Source of the DNA: Shigella phage ESh30
Sequence record: ON528740
Length of the DNA stretch: 64,000 nt
Direction: 5' to 3' (one strand)
The translations under genes and the position numbers were made by a program. Positions 34,831-55,542 of this stretch are shown in pieces; the stretch's first letter is position 1, and each line of letters starts with the position of its first letter. The notes under the pieces are model-generated. The model was not told the DNA's origin, did not search any database, and was given only the letters and a program-made list of their open reading frames with translations.

Positions 34831-36011
34831 ATGAAACAATACCAAGATTTAATTAAAGACATTTTTGAAAATGGCTATGAAACCGATGACCGAACAGGCA
34901 CAGGAACAATTGCTTTATTCGGTACTAAATTACGCTGGGATTTAACTAAAGGTTTTCCTGCGGTAACAACTAAGAAGCTCGCCTGGAAAGCTTGCATTGC
35001 TGAGCTACTTTGGTTTTTATCAGGAAGCACAAATGTCAATGATTTACGATTAATTCAGCATGATTCGTTAATCCAAGGCAAAACAGTTTGGGATGAAAAT
35101 TACGAAAATCAGGCAAAAGATTTAGGATACCATAGTGGTGAACTTGGCCCAATTTATGGAAAACAGTGGCGCGATTTTGGCGGTGTAGACCAAATTATAG
35201 AAGTTATTGATCGTATTAAAAAACTACCAAGTGATAGGCGTCAAATTGTTTCTGCGTGGAATCCAGCTGAACTTAAATATATGGCATTACCACCTTGTCA
35301 TATGTTCTATCAGTTTAATGTGCGTAATGGTTATCTTGATTTACAATGGTATCAACGCAGTGTAGATGTTTTCTTGGGTTAATTGAGGCCTAGGTATAAG
35401 GTGACTTATACTTGTAATCTATCTAAACGGGGGACCTCTCTAGTAGACAATCCCGTGCTAAATTGTAGGACTACCCTTTAATAATTTCATCAGGATTAGT
35501 TACTTACCGTGTAAAATCTGATAAATGGAATTGGTTCTACATAAATGCCTAACGACTATCCCTTTGGGGAGTAGGGTCAAGTGACTCGAAACGATAGACA
35601 ACTTGCTTTAACAAGTTGAAGATATAGTCTGATCTGCATGGTGACATGCAGCTGGATATAATTCCGGGGTAAGATTAACGACCTTATCTGAACATAATGC
35701 TTCCATTTAATATTGCATCATATGCTACGTTAGTTCATATTGTAGCTAAGATGTGTAATCTTATTCCGGGAGATTTGATATTTTCCGGTGGTAATACTCA
35801 TATCTATATGAATCACGTAGAACAATGTAAAGAAATTTTGCGTCGTGAACCTAAAGAGCTTTGTGAACTGGTAATAGGCGGATTGCCTTATAAATTCCGC
35901 TATCTTTCTACTAAAGAACAATTGGAATACATTCTTAAACTCAGGCCTAAAGATTTCGTTCTCAAAGATTATCAGTCCCACGGCGTCTTGAAAGGAAAAA
36001 TGGCGGTGTAA
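34831..36011 (+). CDS. td: thymidylate synthase, interrupted by a group I intron: join(34831..35379, 35700..36011), 286 aa
   Basis: Exon 1 MKQYQDLIKDIFENGYETDDRTGTG...QRSVDVFLG and exon 2 LPFNIASYATLVHIVAKMCNLIPGD...KGKMAV join in frame to give a 286-aa thymidylate synthase. Confidence 0.92.
35380..35699 (+). ncRNA. self-splicing group I intron in td (320 nt), lacking an intact homing-endonuclease ORF
   Basis: Begins UAAUUGAGGCC right after exon-terminal U, ends ...CUGAACAUAAUG (terminal G); conserved core segments of the T4 td intron recognisable. Confidence 0.88.
35484..35552 (+). pseudogene. 3'-terminal remnant of homing endonuclease I-TevI (last ~22 codons)
   Basis: Translation IISSGLVTYRVKSDKWNWFYINA* matches the C-terminus of T4 I-TevI; no start codon or GIY-YIG domain upstream. 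Confidence 0.75.
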
Positions 36012-48645: not shown

Positions 48646-48649
48646 GTTG

Positions 48650-48676
48650 AGGACTCCTTCGGGAGTCCTTTTTTAT
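48650..48676 (+). terminator. intrinsic terminator (aggactcc-UUCG-ggagtcct + T7)
   Basis: Perfect 8-bp stem, UUCG loop, TTTTTTATTTT. Confidence 0.7.
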
Positions 48677-48755: not shown

Positions 48756-49088
48756 ATGAAAACGATTAATCTGAACGCTGCAGTTAAAACTAAATGCTTC
48801 AATGGTAAATATGATGAAACTATGTGGTTCTTAATGGCAGTTGAAGGTGATATTATTGAAGTAGAAACAACAGAAGGTATGGGAACAGATTTCACCTTTA
48901 CAATTCAAGTTCATAATTTCTTTACTGGTTGGATTTATGAATTGAATACAGTAATCGTTGGAAAAATTGAACAAAATGAATTAGGTGAATGGTATTATGT
49001 TACAGCTCGCCAACGTGCCGAACGCTTAATTGAGAAGATGAAAAAAGTTGGTAAACTTGACATGCAGCATTGGAAAGTAGTAAAATAA
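48756..49088 (+). CDS. hypothetical protein (110 aa)
   Basis: ORF track. Confidence 0.5.
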   Translation: MKTINLNAAVKTKCFNGKYDETMWFLMAVEGDIIEVETTEGMGTDFTFTIQVHNFFTGWIYELNTVIVGKIEQNELGEWYYVTARQRAERLIEKMKKVGKLDMQHWKVVK

Positions 49089-49090
49089 TT

Positions 49091-49130
49091 GTTTACTTTG
49101 GTACAGGATATGATATTATATACCTGTACC
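49091..49130 (+). promoter_or_regulatory. T4-type early promoter with -10 (TATTAT) inside 8-bp hairpin ggtacagg/cctgtacc
   Basis: gtttactttggtacaggatatgatattatatacctgtacc. Confidence 0.55.
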
Positions 49131-49155
49131 GCAATTAAACATCTTGGAGAATAAA

Positions 49156-49521
49156 ATGAACTACATCAACTTTGAACGTAAATATGTTTCTAACGGTATT
49201 GCAGGTTCTATTGATACTATTTGCCTTTGGAAACATCAAAATGGATCAGTATGCGAAATTGAGCAGTATATGACTCCTAATTACGTTTATATGCGATTTG
49301 AAAACGGTATCACGGTTTCAATCACGATGGAAGGTTCCAACTTTAAAATCGCTCTGGATGATGATTTCCGTGAACGCGATTTAGGGACTCATCCTTGCTG
49401 GAATGGCGTTAATCGCAAGCTTTTGGTTAAAACTTGGATTCGTCATATTCTGAGTAACAGAGCTAAACCTGAGCATCTTGAAGCAATCTTTGATGTAGTT
49501 CTTAACGAATTTGATATTTAA
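49156..49521 (+). CDS. hypothetical protein (~121 aa)
   Basis: ORF track 49144..49521 (TTG) trimmed to ATG 49156. Confidence 0.45.
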   Translation: MNYINFERKYVSNGIAGSIDTICLWKHQNGSVCEIEQYMTPNYVYMRFENGITVSITMEGSNFKIALDDDFRERDLGTHPCWNGVNRKLLVKTWIRHILSNRAKPEHLEAIFDVVLNEFDI

Positions 49522-49528
49522 AATAAAT

Positions 49529-49544
49529 GAGGGGCTTTGGCCCC
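49529..49544 (+). promoter_or_regulatory. stem-loop aggggc-tttg-gcccct
   Basis: GC inverted repeat between ORFs. Confidence 0.4.
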
Positions 49545-49561
49545 TTACTGAGGAAAATGTT

Positions 49562-49849
49562 ATGTTTATGACTACTTATTTTGATACCCGTAAAAACTTC
49601 TGCGAAGTAGTTTTCTCAAAGGCGCCTAAAGACCTTCCTGCACATTTGCAACCTATCAGTGAATCGATTAAAAACTACGTTAATGTAGTCTGCCCTTTAG
49701 AGTTCCGTACTGTAAATGGGCGCGATACTTTAGCTATCACTAAACTCAATCGCGAAATTGACATTGATCCCTCAATTGCACGTGAAATTAATAGTTCTGA
49801 TATTAATGGCGGTAATGTTAAATCGCACGGTTTTCAGATGAGGTTTTAA
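49562..49849 (+). CDS. hypothetical protein (~95 aa)
   Basis: ORF track 49511..49849 trimmed to ATG 49562 after RBS gaggaaaat. Confidence 0.45.
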   Translation: MFMTTYFDTRKNFCEVVFSKAPKDLPAHLQPISESIKNYVNVVCPLEFRTVNGRDTLAITKLNREIDIDPSIAREINSSDINGGNVKSHGFQMRF

Positions 49850-50046
49850 TGAAATTCTTTTTAGGTCAAACTGTTGAATTAAAGGGAGTTGGTATACCTG
49901 GATTAATTTCTAAGGTTCTACCTCCGTTTAAATGGAGTGGTATTCAAATAAAAGAGGCTTATATTGTTTTCTGGGTAGATGGAAATGAAGACCTTCGTAT
50001 GGGTGATGAATTATCTCCTATCTACGGATTAAAGGAAATAGTATGA
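49849..50046 (+). CDS. hypothetical protein (65 aa)
   Basis: ORF track. Confidence 0.4.
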   Translation: MKFFLGQTVELKGVGIPGLISKVLPPFKWSGIQIKEAYIVFWVDGNEDLRMGDELSPIYGLKEIV

Positions 50047-50249
50047 ATATAATTAATAAGATTTTTGGAATTCAGTACATTAAGGTCACATATAAAGTAA
50101 CAGATAAAAATCCGTATACTGATGAACATGAAGAACCGCAAGTTGAGTCTATTATATTAGAAAAGGACCCTAACTGGCCAGTTGAATTTCGTCTTCCTTG
50201 CTATGGTCATTGGGCTGATGTTGAAATTATAAGCATTGAAAATGTCTGA
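50043..50249 (+). CDS. hypothetical protein (68 aa)
   Basis: ORF track. Confidence 0.4.
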   Translation: MNIINKIFGIQYIKVTYKVTDKNPYTDEHEEPQVESIILEKDPNWPVEFRLPCYGHWADVEIISIENV

Positions 50250-50700
50250 GTTAGAGATTAGAAGCAATTTTAGGTGGCCATCATGTGCATTAAGTAATTT
50301 CGCCCATTGGCCTTTCGTTATGGATGGCATTCAATTTGGAGGTCTTGAAGGATTCCTCCAAGGATGCAAAGTGAAAAATGTTGAACAACAACGTCGTATA
50401 TTTGGGTTATCCGGGCTTGCCGCCCAACAAGCTGGAAGGTCTTATGCAAGAGCTCAGGACCGTGGGACCCTCTTCTGGCTTGGAGTTCCATTTTCAAGAT
50501 ACTCCCCGGCGTGGAAAGAATTATACACAAATGCATATTTTGAAGCAGCGATCCAAAACAAGGGCTTCCGTGATGCATTACAAGCCTCGAAAGGAAAAGT
50601 TTTGAAGCACAGCATGGCTAGTGGTCTAACAAAAGATGATACAATACTAACCGAAGCTGAATTTATTGATGTGTTAAACCTATTAAGAGACTCTCTATGA
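50242..50700 (+). CDS. NADAR / YbiA-like (DUF1768-type) domain protein (~152 aa)
   Basis: Motif block SNFAHWPFVMDGIQFGGLEGFLQGCK resembles the conserved SNFAAWP...DG...E.FQ..K signature of E. coli YbiA-type NADAR domains; locally GC-rich, giving spurious overlapping ORFs 50318..50578(-) and 50378..50605(+). Confidence 0.55.
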   Translation: MSELEIRSNFRWPSCALSNFAHWPFVMDGIQFGGLEGFLQGCKVKNVEQQRRIFGLSGLAAQQAGRSYARAQDRGTLFWLGVPFSRYSPAWKELYTNAYFEAAIQNKGFRDALQASKGKVLKHSMASGLTKDDTILTEAEFIDVLNLLRDSL

Positions 50701-51527
50701 AGCCTACTATTTTAACTGATATTGATGGAGTATGTTTAAGCTGGCAATCAGGCCTTCCTTATTTTGCTCAGAAATATAATCTTCCGTTAGAACATATTTT
50801 AAAAATGATCCAGGATGAGAAATTTATTTCTCCTGGTAAACTATTTAATTGCGATGAAGAACTTGGCGTTAAGCTAATTGAAAAATACAATCGTTCGGAT
50901 TTTATTCGATACTTGTCTCCATATAAAGATGCCCTGTGTGTAATTAACAAATTAAAAGAAGATTATAATTTTGTAGCTGTTACAGCATTGGGTGATTCTA
51001 TTGACGCTCTGCTGAATCGTCAATTTAATTTGAATGCTCTTTTTCCTGGTGCCTTCTCAGAAGTACTGATGTGTGGTCATGATTCTTCAAAAGAAGAGTT
51101 GTTCAAAAAGGCAAAAGAAAAATATAACGTAATTTGTTATATTGACGATCTCGCTCACCACTGCGATCACGCAAGTGAAATATTAAATGTTCCGGTTTAT
51201 TGGATGGCTCGAGGAGAGCGTGACAATATTCCAAAAACTGCGCAGCGAGTTTATACATGGAATGATGTAGAAAATAAGCTTTTTTCGCCGAAGGAAAATA
51301 AAGAAAGTTTTGATAGTGAAAAAGCTATAAAAGATTTAATTGAGAAGATGGTTAAAAACGATTCTTTTCCTTGGAACACTACCTGGAGAACGCCTGGATT
51401 TAATCCTTATAATCATCCATATCAGACACATCCGTTTCAGACATGGAACTATATTAAACCTGGTGGCATAGAGTATTTGTATAATAGACCTACTTGTGGT
51501 GATAATATTTTCCAAGGAGCATTCTAA
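50697..51527 (+). CDS. HAD-superfamily hydrolase-like protein (276 aa)
   Basis: N-terminal motif ILTDIDGV (HAD motif I, DxDxV). Confidence 0.5.
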   Translation: MKPTILTDIDGVCLSWQSGLPYFAQKYNLPLEHILKMIQDEKFISPGKLFNCDEELGVKLIEKYNRSDFIRYLSPYKDALCVINKLKEDYNFVAVTALGDSIDALLNRQFNLNALFPGAFSEVLMCGHDSSKEELFKKAKEKYNVICYIDDLAHHCDHASEILNVPVYWMARGERDNIPKTAQRVYTWNDVENKLFSPKENKESFDSEKAIKDLIEKMVKNDSFPWNTTWRTPGFNPYNHPYQTHPFQTWNYIKPGGIEYLYNRPTCGDNIFQGAF

Positions 51528-51796
51528 TGTTTGTTGTTCACACTATTTATGAAAATGAAGGTAATACTACACGTGATTACGGTCACGTAAATCAATTTTT
51601 TAGATGTAATCCAGAATTCCGAGCTCAAAAAGACGAACGAATTTTTAAAAAATGTGTAGAGCAAGGTTTCATTTACGTTAAGCACTGGATGCAAGGAAAT
51701 AAAGTTAGAACTACATATCATAAGTCTTTGCCTGAGCTTAATGATGAATTGATTTATAATAGAGCTGTAAACCAAACCTTGAAGGATGAGCAATGA
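51527..51796 (+). CDS. hypothetical protein (89 aa)
   Basis: ORF track; ATG overlaps upstream stop. Confidence 0.45.
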   Translation: MFVVHTIYENEGNTTRDYGHVNQFFRCNPEFRAQKDERIFKKCVEQGFIYVKHWMQGNKVRTTYHKSLPELNDELIYNRAVNQTLKDEQ

Positions 51797-53256
51797 TTCT
51801 TAAAATTCTGAATGAAATAGCATCTATTGGATCAACTAAGCAGAAGCAAGCAATTCTTGAAAAGAATAAAGATAATGAATTGCTTAAACGAGTATATCGT
51901 CTGACTTATTCTCGTGGGTTACAGTATTATATCAAGAAATGGCCTAAACCTGGTATTGCTACCCAGAGTTTTGGAATGCTGACTATTACCGATATGCTTG
52001 ACTTCATTGAATTCACGTTAGCTACTCGGAAATTGACTGGAAATGCTGCAATTGAGGAATTAACTGGATATATCACTGATGGTAAAAAGGATGATGTTGA
52101 AGTTTTGCGTCGGGTGATGATGCGAGACCTTGAATGCGGTGCTTCAGTATCTATTGCAAACAAAGTTTGGCCAGGTTTAATTCCTGAACAACCTCAAATG
52201 CTTGCAAGTTCTTATGATGAAAAAGGCATTAATAAGAATATCAAATTTCCAGCCTTTGCCCAGTTAAAAGCTGATGGAGCTCGGTGTTTTGCCGAAGTCA
52301 GAGGTGATGAATTAGATGATGTTCGTCTTTTATCACGAGCCGGTAATGAATATCTAGGATTAGATCTTCTTAAGGAAGAATTAATCAAAATGACCGCTGA
52401 AGCCCGCCAGATTCATCCAGAAGGCGTGTTAATTGATGGCGAATTGGTATACCATGAGCAAGTTAAAAAGGAGCCAGAAGGCCTAGATTTTCTTTTTGAT
52501 GCTTATCCTGAAATTAGTAAAGCCAAAGAATTCGCCGAAGTAGCTGAATCACGTACTACTTCTAATGGAATCGCTAATAAATCTTTAAAGGGAACCATTT
52601 CTGAAAAAGAAGCTCAATGCATGAAGTTTCAGGTCTGGGATTATGTTCCATTGGTAGAAATATACGGTCTTCCTGCATTTCGTTTGAAATATGATGTACG
52701 TTTTTCTAAACTAGAACAAATGACATCAGGCTATGATAAAGTAATTTTAATTGAAAACCAGGTAGTAAATAACCTAGATGAAGCTAAGGTAATTTATAAA
52801 AAGTATATTGACCAAGGTCTTGAAGGTATTATTCTCAAAAATATCGATGGATTATGGGAAAATGCTCGTTCAAAAAATCTCTATAAATTTAAAGAAGTAA
52901 TTGATGTTGATTTAAAAATTGTAGGAATTTATCCTCACCGTAAAGACCCTACTAAAGCGGGTGGATTTATTCTTGAATCAGAGTGTGGAAAAATTAAAGT
53001 AAATGCTGGTTCAGGCTTAAAAGATAAAGCCGGTGTAAAATCGCATGAACTTGACCGTACTCGCATTATGGAAAACCAAAATTATTATATTGGAAAAATT
53101 CTAGAGTGCGAATGTAATGGTTGGTTAAAATCTGATGGCCGCACTGATTACGTTAAATTATTTCTTCCGATTGCGATTCGTTTGCGTGAAGATAAAACTA
53201 AAGCTAATACATTCGAGGATGTATTTGGTGATTTTCATGAGGTAACTGGTCTATGA
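51793..53256 (+). CDS. 30: ATP-dependent DNA ligase (487 aa)
   Basis: MILKILNEIASIGSTKQKQAILEKNKDNELLKRVYRLTYSRGLQYYIKKW... with adenylation lysine motif KADGAR; recognised as T4 DNA ligase. Confidence 0.95.
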   Translation: MILKILNEIASIGSTKQKQAILEKNKDNELLKRVYRLTYSRGLQYYIKKWPKPGIATQSFGMLTITDMLDFIEFTLATRKLTGNAAIEELTGYITDGKKDDVEVLRRVMMRDLECGASVSIANKVWPGLIPEQPQMLASSYDEKGINKNIKFPAFAQLKADGARCFAEVRGDELDDVRLLSRAGNEYLGLDLLKEELIKMTAEARQIHPEGVLIDGELVYHEQVKKEPEGLDFLFDAYPEISKAKEFAEVAESRTTSNGIANKSLKGTISEKEAQCMKFQVWDYVPLVEIYGLPAFRLKYDVRFSKLEQMTSGYDKVILIENQVVNNLDEAKVIYKKYIDQGLEGIILKNIDGLWENARSKNLYKFKEVIDVDLKIVGIYPHRKDPTKAGGFILESECGKIKVNAGSGLKDKAGVKSHELDRTRIMENQNYYIGKILECECNGWLKSDGRTDYVKLFLPIAIRLREDKTKANTFEDVFGDFHEVTGL

Positions 53257-53441
53257 AAGCTTACTTAGAAACAATTGTCGTGGCTCAAAAAGAAGGTGGA
53301 GATGTTTCTACTTCTGTATCACAAGTCATTCTCGAATTTGTAGATGCATACGCTTATAATAAATTTACAGAAACATTTGATGCCTATGAAAAAGGACCAA
53401 AGTTTGAAATATATCGTACTCTCTTACCACTAGATTACTAA
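53253..53441 (+). CDS. hypothetical protein (62 aa)
   Basis: ORF track; ATGA-coupled to ligase. Confidence 0.45.
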   Translation: MKAYLETIVVAQKEGGDVSTSVSQVILEFVDAYAYNKFTETFDAYEKGPKFEIYRTLLPLDY

Positions 53442-53456
53442 AGGCCTTCGGGCCTT
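53441..53456 (+). terminator. stem-loop aaggcc-UUCG-ggcctt
   Basis: Same hairpin sequence as at 5044..5062. Confidence 0.5.
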
Positions 53457-53462
53457 TAATTT

Positions 53463-53470
53463 TATAAATA
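53463..53470 (+). promoter_or_regulatory. T4 late promoter TATAAATA upstream of alt
   Basis: Exact TATAAATA about 23 nt upstream of alt start; alt encodes a virion-packaged protein in T4. Confidence 0.6.
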
Positions 53471-53493
53471 GAATAAACACTAGAGAGGCTATG

Positions 53494-55542
53494 ATGGAAC
53501 TTATTACAGAATTATTTGACGAAGATACTACTCTTCCGATTACAAACTTAAATCCAAAGAAGAAAATACCGCAAATTTTTTCAGTTCATGTTGATGATGC
53601 AATTGAACAACCAGGCTTTCGTTTATGTACCTATACATCTGGAGGTGATACTAATCGCGATTTAAAAATGGGCGATAAAATGATGCATATTGTTCCTTTT
53701 ACATTAACTGCTAAAGGTTCAATTGCTAAATTAAAAGGTCTTGGTCCAAGCCCAATTAATTATATCAATTCAGTTTTTACTGTTGCAATGCAAACAATGC
53801 GTCAGTATAAAATTGATGCTTGTATGCTTCGTATTCTTAAGTCTAAAACCGCTGGTCAAGCTCGACAAATTCAAGTTATTGCTGATAGACTTATCCGTAG
53901 TCGTTCAGGTGGCAGATACGTCCTTCTTAAGGAACTCTGGGATTACGATAAAAAGTATGCATATATTCTTATACATCGCAAAAATGTATCACTAGAAGAC
54001 ATTCCAGGGGTTCCGGAAATTAGTACCGAGCTCTTTACTAAAGTTGAATCGAAGGTCGGTGATGTTTATATCAATAAAGATACTGGAGCTCAAGTAACTA
54101 AAAATGAGGCAATTGCAGCATCTATTGCACAAGAAAATGATAAACGTTCTGATCAAGCTGTAATCGTTAAAGTTAAAATTTCCCGTAGAGCAATTGCACA
54201 AAGTCAGTCGTTGGAATCTTCTAGATTTGAAACACCGATGTTTCAAAAATTTGAGGCTTCAGCGGCAGAATTAAATAAACCAGCGGACGCTCCTTTAATT
54301 TCTGATTCTAATGAATTAACGGTAATTTCTACTTCAGGATTTGCACTAGAGAATGCTCTTAGCAGTGTTACAGCTGGGATGGCATTCAGAGAAGCTTCTA
54401 TAATTCCTGAAGATAAAGAATCCATTATTAATGCAGAAATAAAAAATAAAGCTTTAGAAAAATTACGAAAAGAATCTATTACTTCAATAAAAACTTTAGA
54501 AACTATTGCTTCTATCGTCGATGATACTTTAGAAAAATATAAAGGTGCTTGGTTTGAAAGAAATATTAACAGACATTCGCATTTAAACCAAGATGCTGCA
54601 AATGAGTTAGTACAAAATTCTTGGAATGCAATAAAAACAAAGATTATTCGAAGAGAATTACGTGGATATGCTCTTACCGCTGGATGGTCATTACATCCTA
54701 TAGTCGAAAATAAAGATTCATCTAAATACACACCAGCACAAAAACGCGGAATTCGTGAATACGTAGGTTCAGGATATGTAGACATAAATAATGCTCTTTT
54801 GGGATTATATAATCCAGATGAGCGTACAAGTATTTTAACAGCACCTGAAATAGAACAAGCCATTGATAATTTAGATTCAGCCTTTAAAAATGGTGAACGA
54901 TTACCAAAAGGTATTACTTTGTATCGTTCACAACGAATGTTACCTTCAATATACGAAGCAATGGTAAAAAATCGAGTTTTTTATTTTAGAAACTTTGTGT
55001 CAACATCATTATATCCAAATATTTTTGGTACTTGGATGACTGATTCATCTGTGGGTGTTTTACCAGATGAAAAGCGTCTAAACATTTCTATCGATAAAAA
55101 TGATGAAGGGCTTGTTAATTCTAGCGATAATTTAGTCGGAATTGGATGGGTTATTACTGGGGCTGATAAAGTCAACGTTGTTTTACCCGGTGGAAGTTTA
55201 GCGCCTTCAAATGAAATGGAAGTCATTTTGCCACGTGGATTAATGGTCAAAGTTAATAAAATAACTGATGCATCTTACAATGATGGAACAGTCAAAACTA
55301 ACAACAAGCTTATTCAAGCTGAAGTTATGACCACCGAAGAACTCACCGAATCAGTAATTTATGACGGTGACCGTTTAATGGAAACCGGCGAAGTAGTTAC
55401 AATGACAGGTGATATAGAAGATAGAGTTGACTTTGCATCATTTGTTTCATCAAATGTTAAACAGAAAGTAGAATCATCTCTTGGAATTATTGCGTCTTGC
55501 ATAGATATTGCAAACATGCCTTACAAGTTCGTTCAAGGATAA
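53494..55542 (+). CDS. alt: ADP-ribosyltransferase Alt (682 aa), modifies host RNA polymerase
   Basis: MELITELFDEDTTLPITNLNPKKKIPQIFSVHVDDAIEQPGFRLCTYTSGGDTNRDLKMGDKMMHIVPF...; length and position between 30 and 54 as in T4. Confidence 0.88.
   Translation: MELITELFDEDTTLPITNLNPKKKIPQIFSVHVDDAIEQPGFRLCTYTSGGDTNRDLKMGDKMMHIVPFTLTAKGSIAKLKGLGPSPINYINSVFTVAMQTMRQYKIDACMLRILKSKTAGQARQIQVIADRLIRSRSGGRYVLLKELWDYDKKYAYILIHRKNVSLEDIPGVPEISTELFTKVESKVGDVYINKDTGAQVTKNEAIAASIAQENDKRSDQAVIVKVKISRRAIAQSQSLESSRFETPMFQKFEASAAELNKPADAPLISDSNELTVISTSGFALENALSSVTAGMAFREASIIPEDKESIINAEIKNKALEKLRKESITSIKTLETIASIVDDTLEKYKGAWFERNINRHSHLNQDAANELVQNSWNAIKTKIIRRELRGYALTAGWSLHPIVENKDSSKYTPAQKRGIREYVGSGYVDINNALLGLYNPDERTSILTAPEIEQAIDNLDSAFKNGERLPKGITLYRSQRMLPSIYEAMVKNRVFYFRNFVSTSLYPNIFGTWMTDSSVGVLPDEKRLNISIDKNDEGLVNSSDNLVGIGWVITGADKVNVVLPGGSLAPSNEMEVILPRGLMVKVNKITDASYNDGTVKTNNKLIQAEVMTTEELTESVIYDGDRLMETGEVVTMTGDIEDRVDFASFVSSNVKQKVESSLGIIASCIDIANMPYKFVQG

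What the first reader, a model, noticed from the sequence alone, without database searches (positions are those of the whole stretch)
50242..50700. GC-rich NADAR/YbiA-like gene in the early region near alt (ADP-ribosyltransferase)
The ~152-aa ORF carries the block SNFAHWPFVMDGIQFGGLEGFLQGCK, which resembles the conserved core of NADAR (YbiA/DUF1768) domains. NADAR proteins are linked to NAD/ADP-ribose metabolism and have been reported to reverse ADP-ribosylation of guanine bases. The gene is compositionally distinct (higher GC, spurious overlapping ORFs on other frames), suggesting horizontal acquisition. In a phage that also encodes Alt it is a candidate ADP-ribosylation eraser or counter-defence factor.
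Basis: partly seen in the sequence, partly recalled or inferred. Interest (0 to 1): 0.55.

Follow-up and report, generated by a model that had tools for sequence, protein, structure and literature searches.

The report
T4 gene 30.3: known anti-DarT NADAR
This is the T4-type phage gene 30.3, already shown in 2024-2025 to encode AdfN, a small NADAR enzyme that strips ADP-ribose off phage DNA to defeat the bacterial DarTG1 defence.

Summary
The ORF at 50242..50700 (+) is real. It encodes 152 aa and contains the quoted motif at residues 18-43. It is gene 30.3 of a Tequatrovirus, 150/152 identical to T4 gp30.3, sitting in the T4 order 30.4-30.3-30.2-30.1-ligase-alt.1-alt.

It matches Pfam PF08010 (Phage_30_3) at E=7e-70, not PF08719 (NADAR) directly. 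The NADAR assignment still holds:
- A family profile against a YbiA profile gives 97.4% probability, E=1.4e-11.
- E36 and K43 (mutated in T4 AdfN), the subfamily's H123 and the C-terminal helix are all present.

The function is published. T4 gp30.3 is AdfN, a guanine-specific DNA ADP-ribosylglycohydrolase needed for growth on DarTG1 hosts (PMC11825919; PMC11125620).

Two side claims are weak. GC is only modestly raised (42.5% vs 35.8%, z=2.1) and the gene is old and syntenic in T4-like phages. Nothing links it functionally to Alt.

Verdict: observation confirmed, interpretation supported, already known.

The parts
50242..50700 (+). Gene 30.3 / adfN: 152-aa phage-type NADAR, a DNA guanine ADP-ribosylglycohydrolase. 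E36, K43 and H123 are present and the C-terminal helix 138-151 is intact.
50293..50370 (+). Codons 18-43 (SNFAHWPFVMDGIQFGGLEGFLQGCK): the conserved NADAR core motif, holding catalytic Glu36 and Lys43.
   Evidence: S18, N19, F20, F25, E36, G37, F38 and Q40 are invariant and K43 is >=90% conserved in 67 family members. The motif aligns to YbiA S30-N31-F32...E48...K55.
50608..50610 (+). Codon for His123, which the cited papers give as the phage-subfamily replacement for the third catalytic acidic residue (Glu in YbiA-type, Asp in DarG1-type NADARs).
   Evidence: Invariant in alignment A1. Equivalence to the Glu is stated in PMC11543638 and PMC11125620. The hhalign register here is two residues off YbiA E125, so the equivalence was not independently confirmed.
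50653..50697 (+). Last 15 codons (part of the C-terminal helix). This segment is lost in the frameshifted, DarTG1-sensitive RB69 allele; it is intact here.
   Evidence: Helix 138-151 in the model. Full-length alignment to T4. RB69 truncation and reduced activity in PMC11825919.
50043..50249 (+). Gene 30.4 (68 aa, unknown function). Its stop overlaps the 30.3 start (ATGTCTGA, 8-nt overlap), suggesting translational coupling.
   Evidence: Sequence. Same arrangement in the T4 annotation.
50697..51527 (+). Gene 30.2 (276 aa, HAD-like phosphatase signature LTDxDG). Its start overlaps the 30.3 stop (ATGA). It is a neighbour and is not shown to be part of the mechanism.
   Evidence: Weak PHROG polynucleotide-kinase hit, E=0.0027. 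Conserved LTDxDG in 21 homologues. Adjacent to 30.3 only in T-even-like loci.
50378..50605 (+). 30.3' of the T4 annotation: a 75-aa +1-frame ORF inside 30.3. Probably not a conserved gene.
   Evidence: Annotated in T4. p about 0.06 against synonymous shuffles. Of 8 alleles at about 86% protein identity, 7 have lost the ATG and the one that keeps it has an internal stop. Median open +1 stretch is 45 codons in 66 divergent homologues.
49057..49086 (+). Sigma-70-like promoter match (TTGACA-18-TAAAAT, 11/12) upstream of 30.7. Candidate early promoter for the 30.7...alt.1 unit that contains 30.3.
   Evidence: This is a consensus match only; the overall count of such sites equals the shuffle expectation.
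53439..53458 (+). Terminator-like hairpin after alt.1 and before alt. It suggests that 30.3 and alt are not one obligatory transcription unit.
   Evidence: pattern match only.

Best explanation
The ORF is gene 30.3 (adfN) of a T4-type phage. It encodes a stand-alone, minimal NADAR-fold N-glycosidase.

The published mechanism for the T4 protein is as follows. When the phage infects a cell carrying the DarTG1 toxin-antitoxin defence, the DarT1 toxin ADP-ribosylates guanine bases in phage DNA and blocks replication. AdfN hydrolyses the guanine-ADP-ribose bond and restores replicable DNA. It acts as an orphan copy of the DarG1 antitoxin and does not bind the toxin.

In this protein the ADP-ribose is expected to be held by Glu36 and Lys43, with His123 in the place of the third catalytic acidic residue of other NADARs. 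The C-terminal helix is needed for full activity.

What is shown here: identity with T4 AdfN, the fold, the conserved residues, full length and synteny. What is taken from the literature on the 99%-identical T4 protein: the enzymatic activity and the anti-DarTG1 phenotype. What is inferred: that this allele, with Q22H and I125M, behaves the same way.
For: - 150/152 identical to T4 gp30.3; the differences are Q22H and I125M. Both are at variable columns, and Met is the family consensus at position 125.
- Identical proteins occur in phages Shinka (annotated 'NADAR domain containing protein') and SHFML-26.
- PF08010 at E=7e-70.
- hhalign of the gp30.3 family against the YbiA family: probability 97.4%, E=1.4e-11, 125 columns. 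E36 aligns to YbiA E48 and K43 to K55.
- AF2 model pLDDT 92.9, pTM 0.88.
- E36 and H123 are invariant and K43 is >=90% conserved in 67 homologues.

From the literature:
- Deleting adfN makes T4 and T2 unable to plaque on DarTG1 hosts.
- Ectopic AdfN-T4 rescues RB69.
- E36A and K43A impair the rescue.
- Purified protein removes ADP-ribose from DarT1-modified DNA.
- There is no two-hybrid interaction with DarT1 and no activity against DarTG2 (PMC11825919).
- The T4 NADAR hydrolyses guanine-ADPr but not thymidine-ADPr in vitro (PMC11125620; PMC12945103).
Against: - There is no direct PF08719 or NCBIfam hit for this sequence, so NADAR membership rests on profile-profile and fold evidence.
- The hhalign register around His123 is two residues off YbiA E125, so the His/Glu equivalence was not verified here.
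- AdfN-T4 does not neutralise DarT1 in uninfected E. coli and only weakly rescues T5 and Bas25. The mechanism is therefore incomplete, and an unknown T-even factor is suspected (PMC11825919 section 10; PMC11125620).
- Nothing was measured for this particular allele.
Confidence: 0.93

Rival explanations
1. It is an eraser for the phage's own ADP-ribosyltransferases (Alt, ModA, ModB). It would remove ADP-ribose or RNA-linked ADP-ribose from host proteins or nucleic acids and so tune the phage's own modifications.
For: alt lies 2.8 kb downstream on the same strand. Iyer et al. [quoted passage not shown]
Against: - Every substrate reported for NADARs in the papers read here is a nucleobase-ADP-ribose N-glycosidic bond: guanine, and cytosine for some families.
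- The T4 deletion phenotype is specifically loss of DarTG1 resistance.
- alt is within 5 kb of the gp30.3 homologue in only 15 of 80 loci, all with inherited T-even synteny.
- A terminator-like hairpin separates alt.1 from alt.
Confidence: 0.04
2. It is a metabolic or small-molecule N-glycosidase. One version is YbiA-like, clearing reactive riboflavin-pathway intermediates. The other degrades soluble ADP-ribose-derived immune signals, as proposed for phage NADARs by Iyer et al. 2022.
For: The closest sequence-detectable solved relative is YbiA, which RefSeq names 'N-glycosidase YbiA'. The soluble-signal hypothesis is in PMC9503650.
Against: - The YbiA-defining Glu is replaced by an invariant His in this family.
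- The T4 protein acts on ADP-ribosylated DNA in vitro and is necessary for DarTG1 resistance in vivo.
- No NAD-salvage or riboflavin genes turned up among the neighbours clustered in 75 loci.
Confidence: 0.03
3. The compositional bump marks an overlapping gene (30.3' in the +1 frame, or an antisense ORF) that carries a function of its own.
For: T4's record annotates 30.3' as an internal translation product. The +1 frame stays stop-free in 14 of 15 close alleles. The longest other-frame ORF exceeds 96.5% of synonymous shuffles.
Against: - The 30.3' ATG is replaced by ATT, ATC or ACG in 8 of the 15 alleles, and one allele has an internal stop.
- The antisense ORFs have stops in T4 itself.
- Divergent homologues have a median open +1 stretch of only 45 codons.
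- Higher GC alone lowers stop-codon density.
Confidence: 0.03

Closest known systems
AdfN-T4 (T4 gp30.3, NP_049816.1; Pfam PF08010 Phage_30_3), anti-DarT factor NADAR (Johannesman et al., Nat Commun 2025, PMC11825919)
   Same: 150/152 residues identical and the same length. E36, K43, H123 and the C-terminal helix are all present. It has the same genomic slot between 30.4 and 30.2, with the same overlapping start and stop codons.
   Different: Two substitutions, Q22H and I125M, both at positions that vary within the family. The exact allele is also present in other sequenced phages.
DarG1 antitoxin NADARs of DarTG1 systems (e.g. Geobacter lovleyi NADAR 8bat; E. coli C7 DarG1)
   Different: - It is an orphan with no adjacent DarT toxin.
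- It is a minimal core domain without the N-terminal extension of DarG1 (152 aa against 219; PMC12945103).
- His replaces the Asp in the last strand.
- The T4 protein cannot replace DarG1 in uninfected cells.
E. coli YbiA (2b3w; Pfam PF08719 NADAR/DUF1768)
   Different: About 20% identity. The YbiA-type Glu125 is not conserved; the phage family has His123. This sequence gives no direct PF08719 hit. According to the papers read, the YbiA family is linked to riboflavin metabolism and swarming rather than phage counter-defence.
AdfN-Bas32 and AdfN-Bas60 (NADARs of T5-like and Vequintavirinae phages)
   Same: Phage-encoded NADARs that counter DarTG1 and are specific for guanine-ADP-ribose.
   Different: They belong to other NADAR clades and were acquired independently. 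They neutralise DarT1 without phage infection, whereas the gp30.3-type needs the T-even context.

Membership tests
gp30.3 / AdfN phage NADAR family (PF08010) | Significant match to the Phage_30_3 profile above the gathering score | tested here: met
   233.6 bits against a cut-off of 36, E=7.4e-70, covering profile positions 1-138 of 138.
gp30.3 / AdfN phage NADAR family (PF08010) | Histidine in place of the third catalytic acidic residue (last strand) | tested here: met
   H123 is present and invariant in 67 homologues. The model has a strand at 120-122 immediately before it. The His-for-Glu/Asp rule is stated in PMC11125620 and PMC11543638.
gp30.3 / AdfN phage NADAR family (PF08010) | Full-length protein with the C-terminal helix (lost in the inactive RB69 allele) | tested here: met
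   152 aa, aligned end to end with T4. Helix 138-151 in the model.
gp30.3 / AdfN phage NADAR family (PF08010) | DNA guanine ADP-ribosylglycohydrolase activity and DarTG1 counter-defence | not testable with these tools
   Shown experimentally for the 99%-identical T4 protein (PMC11825919; PMC11125620). Inferred for this allele.
NADAR superfamily (YbiA/DUF1768, PF08719) | Direct match of this sequence to the PF08719 profile | tested here: not met
   No PF08719 hit at E<=1. However, 8 of 67 family members hit it (best E=1.5e-7), and several YbiA-family proteins carry both PF08010 and PF08719 hits.
NADAR superfamily (YbiA/DUF1768, PF08719) | Profile-level homology to bona fide NADARs | tested here: met
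   hhalign probability 97.4%, E=1.4e-11 over 125 columns. The A1 profile hits the YbiA structure 2b3w at E=0.005.
NADAR superfamily (YbiA/DUF1768, PF08719) | NADAR fold (helical core flanked by small beta-hairpins) | tested here: met
NADAR superfamily (YbiA/DUF1768, PF08719) | Catalytic Glu and Lys of the E-x6-K motif that bind ADP-ribose | tested here: met
   E36 aligns to YbiA E48 and K43 to YbiA K55. E36 is invariant and K43 is >=90% conserved. These are the same residues mutated in T4 AdfN.
NADAR superfamily (YbiA/DUF1768, PF08719) | Structural equivalence of His123 with the Glu125 position of YbiA/PnNADAR | tested here: inconclusive
   hhalign places H123 opposite YbiA T127, two residues from E125, in a gapped low-confidence segment. 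No residue-level structural superposition was available.
DarTG1 toxin-antitoxin system (DarG1 antitoxin) | NADAR gene adjacent to a DarT1 ADP-ribosyltransferase toxin gene | tested here: not met
   The flanking genes are 30.4 and 30.2, with no Pfam family at E<=1. No toxin-like protein was among the largest neighbour clusters in 75 loci. It is an orphan, as the literature describes.

The most novel reading that the evidence does not exclude
The literature leaves one gap. AdfN-T4 works fully only during T-even infection, and an unidentified phage 'potentiating factor' is suspected.

The most novel reading my data do not exclude is that this factor is the translationally coupled downstream gene 30.2, a HAD-like phosphatase with a conserved LTDxDG motif. 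Alternatively it could be another gene of the 30.7-alt.1 unit. 30.2 might, for example, process the released ADP-ribose or the DNA end, or localise the NADAR.

For: the ATGA overlap, adjacency in all T-even-like loci, and nearly the same spread across phage records (1452 against 1510).

Against: in 66 divergent loci the two genes are not neighbours and no partner is conserved. 30.2 keeps company with the ligase instead.
Probability: 0.06. Interest if true: 0.45.

Novelty: already known. Interest (0 to 1): 0.1.

Why it matters
The gene decides whether a T4-type phage can grow on bacteria armed with DarTG1, which is relevant to phage host range and phage therapy. That conclusion, the fold, the catalytic residues and the knockout phenotype are already published for a protein that differs at 2 of 152 positions.

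The practical value here is annotation. In most of the close relatives listed this ORF is still labelled 'hypothetical protein'. It should be labelled adfN, a phage NADAR and DNA ADP-ribosylglycohydrolase, and this phage can be predicted to be DarTG1-resistant. The only open biology nearby is the unidentified T-even cofactor of AdfN.

Tried and rejected
1. Direct family scans for NADAR.
   - Pfam at E<=1 gave only PF08010.
   - NCBIfam gave nothing.
   - Single-sequence phmmer against PDB gave only a chance hit.
   - I therefore moved to profile-profile and fold comparison, which were decisive.

2. Recent horizontal acquisition.
   - The GC excess is +6 to +7 points in Tequatrovirus loci, +1.5 to +2 in the 86%-identity group, and +1.3 on average in 66 divergent loci.
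   - Nucleotide identity to the 86%-protein-identity group is only about 80%, so synonymous sites have diverged.
   - I rejected recent transfer. An ancient co-option from DarG1-like NADARs, as proposed in PMC11825919, is compatible with the data.

3. Conserved gene neighbourhood as a clue to a partner.
   - I clustered the three ORFs on each side of the gene in 75 loci.
   - Only inherited T-even synteny appeared; no cluster is shared by more than 4 divergent loci.

4. Overlapping genes (30.3' and the antisense ORFs). They are not conserved.

5. RNA structure at the 30.4/30.3 junction: z=0.35, nothing there. Rfam has no hit in the region.

6. Promoter scan. The number of sites equals the shuffle expectation, so individual sites are only suggestive.

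7. 30.2 against PDB by sequence gave only a chance hit.

Full report
**1. What is in the sequence**

The window carries an ORF from the ATG at 50242 to the TGA ending at 50700 on the + strand, encoding 152 aa.

The start codon overlaps the stop of the upstream 68-aa ORF (ATGTCTGA). The stop overlaps the start of the downstream 276-aa ORF (ATGA).

The surrounding genes are those of phage T4 in T4 order: 30.7, 30.6, 30.5, 30.4, 30.3, 30.2, 30.1 (DUF3045), DNA ligase gp30, alt.1 and alt. Alt at 53491..55542 is 98% identical to T4 Alt. A 2-kb stretch around the gene is 97-98.7% identical to many Tequatrovirus genomes.

**2. Composition and other-frame ORFs**

The gene is 42.5% GC against 35.8% for the window. 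That is z=2.1, the 96th percentile of equal-sized windows, and about ten other stretches of the window are equally GC-rich. Third-position GC is 0.34, against 0.19-0.26 in the neighbours.

Across 80 related loci the picture varies:
- The excess is +6 to +7 points only in Tequatrovirus loci.
- It is +1.5 to +2 points in the group with 86% protein identity.
- It averages +1.3 points in 66 divergent homologues.

Against the 86% group the nucleotide identity is only about 80%, so synonymous sites have diverged and a recent transfer is unlikely. The gene family occurs in 1510 phage records across hosts including Escherichia, Klebsiella, Aeromonas, Acinetobacter and Vibrio. Any acquisition is therefore ancient.

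The other-frame ORFs are real. The +1-frame ORF at 50378..50605 is the one that T4's record.3'. They are only marginally longer than synonymous-codon shuffles produce (p about 0.06, 0.016 and 0.09).

They are also poorly conserved:
- The antisense ORFs carry stops in T4 itself.
- The 30.3' ATG is lost in 8 of 15 close alleles.
- Divergent homologues have a median open +1 stretch of 45 codons.

I read these ORFs as a by-product of lower stop-codon density in a GC-richer gene.

**3. What it is**

hmmscan against Pfam gives PF08010 (Phage_30_3) at E=7.4e-70 and no PF08719 (NADAR) hit even at E<=1. NCBIfam gives nothing.

The protein is 150/152 identical to T4 gp30.3, differing by Q22H and I125M. 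Both positions vary within the family, and Met is the family consensus at 125. Identical proteins exist in phages Shinka, where it is annotated 'NADAR domain containing protein', and SHFML-26.

*Sequence profiles*
- A profile of 67 family members hits the YbiA structure 2b3w at E=0.005.
- 8 of the 67 members hit PF08719 directly, best E=1.5e-7.
- hhalign of the family against an alignment of 37 YbiA-family proteins gives probability 97.4% and E=1.4e-11 over 125 columns.

*Fold*
- An AlphaFold2 model built on the family alignment has mean pLDDT 92.9 and pTM 0.88.
- Foldseek returns the same three.

*Residues*
- E36 aligns with YbiA E48 and K43 with YbiA K55.
- E36 is invariant and K43 is >=90% conserved.
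- H123 is invariant. The literature identifies a His at this point as the phage-subfamily replacement for the Glu (YbiA type) or Asp (DarG1 type) of the last strand (PMC11125620; PMC11543638).
- My hhalign register in that segment is two residues off, so I could not confirm the His/Glu equivalence independently.

**4. How it works**

This is published. Johannesman et al. (Nat Commun 2025, PMC11825919) mapped DarTG1 resistance of T2 and T4 to gene 30.3 by recombination into RB69, and renamed it adfN, for anti-DarT factor NADAR. Their results:
- Deleting it abolishes plaquing of T4 and T2 on DarTG1 hosts.
- Ectopic AdfN-T4 rescues RB69.
- The E36A and K43A variants, and a truncation of the last 15 residues (the natural RB69 frameshift), all weaken the rescue.
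- AdfN does not bind DarT1.
- Purified AdfN removes ADP-ribose from DarT1-modified DNA.
- It does not counter the thymidine-specific DarTG2.

Independent biochemistry shows that the T4 NADAR hydrolyses guanine-ADP-ribose but not thymidine-ADP-ribose (PMC11125620; PMC12945103). The computational assignment of gp30.3 proteins to the NADAR superfamily is credited in those papers to an earlier bioinformatic study by de Souza and Aravind.

The window allele has everything the published work found necessary: E36, K43, H123 and the intact C-terminal helix 138-151. The best explanation is that it is a functional AdfN and that this phage is DarTG1-resistant. The activity of this exact allele is inferred, not measured.

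**5. The link to Alt and the neighbourhood**

I find no support for a functional link:
- alt, 30.2 and the ligase lie within 5 kb of the gp30.3 homologue in only 15, 20 and 20 of 80 loci respectively. Nearly all of these have inherited T-even-like gene order.
- Clustering the three ORFs on each side in 75 loci found no neighbour shared by more than 4 divergent loci.
- A terminator-like hairpin at 53439-53458 separates alt.1 from alt. A strong promoter-like site at 49057-49086 precedes 30.7. Both are pattern matches only.

**6. What remains open**

AdfN-T4 does not protect uninfected cells from DarT1 and only weakly rescues T5 and Bas25. The authors suspect an additional T-even factor.

The translationally coupled downstream gene 30.2 has a conserved LTDxDG HAD-type motif and nearly the same spread across phage records as 30.3 (1452 against 1510). 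It is a cheap candidate. The lack of conserved adjacency outside T-even relatives argues against it, and I give it about 6%.

**7. Verdict**

The horizontal-acquisition and Alt-link side claims are weak. The feature is already known as AdfN (T4 gp30.3). Interest is low. The useful outcome is a correct annotation of an ORF that most close relatives listed here still label 'hypothetical protein'.

Noticed in passing
window 50697-51527 (+), gene 30.2: The 276-aa protein downstream of adfN has no Pfam or NCBIfam hit. It has a conserved N-terminal LTDxDG motif (HAD phosphatase motif I) and a weak PHROG hit to polynucleotide kinase (E=0.0027). In more distant T4-like phages it stays next to the DNA ligase rather than next to 30.3. 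That hints at a DNA-end phosphatase working with the ligase, or possibly the unknown AdfN cofactor.
   Followed up: partly
window 50378-50605 (+): This is the T4-annotated 30.3', a +1-frame ORF of 75 aa inside 30.3. The frame stays open in 14 of 15 close alleles. Its ATG is replaced in 8 of them, and the ORF is not conserved in divergent homologues.
   Followed up: yes
loci L007-L013, L049 (IMG/VR genomes of about 170-172 kb) compared with window 48756-55542: In this phage group gp30.3 (84-86% identity) and gp30.7 (91-94%) are much better conserved than their immediate neighbours: 30.4 at 39-49%, 30.1 at 45-47%, ligase at 62-70% and alt at 35-57%. This suggests strong purifying selection on these two small early genes.
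   Followed up: partly
window 35370-35651 (+): An Rfam group I catalytic intron (RF00028, 70.3 bits, E=8e-16) is the only Rfam hit in the window. By position it is probably one of the classical T4 introns (td or nrdB); the host gene was not checked.
   Followed up: no
PMC11125620, Methods section 4.2 (not a window feature): The Toxins 2024 paper lists its T4 phage NADAR construct as 'gp30.3; residues 1-208'. T4 gp30.3 and the window protein are 152 aa. PHROG 652, which this protein matches at positions 126-272 of 296, evidently contains longer members. The construct used there may not be the 152-aa T4 protein.
   Followed up: no
window 48649-48670 (+), 49057-49086 (+) and 53439-53458 (+): Two GC-rich hairpins followed by T-runs and a near-consensus sigma-70 promoter bracket the genes 30.7 to alt.1. 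This suggests one early transcription unit that contains adfN and excludes alt.
   Followed up: no
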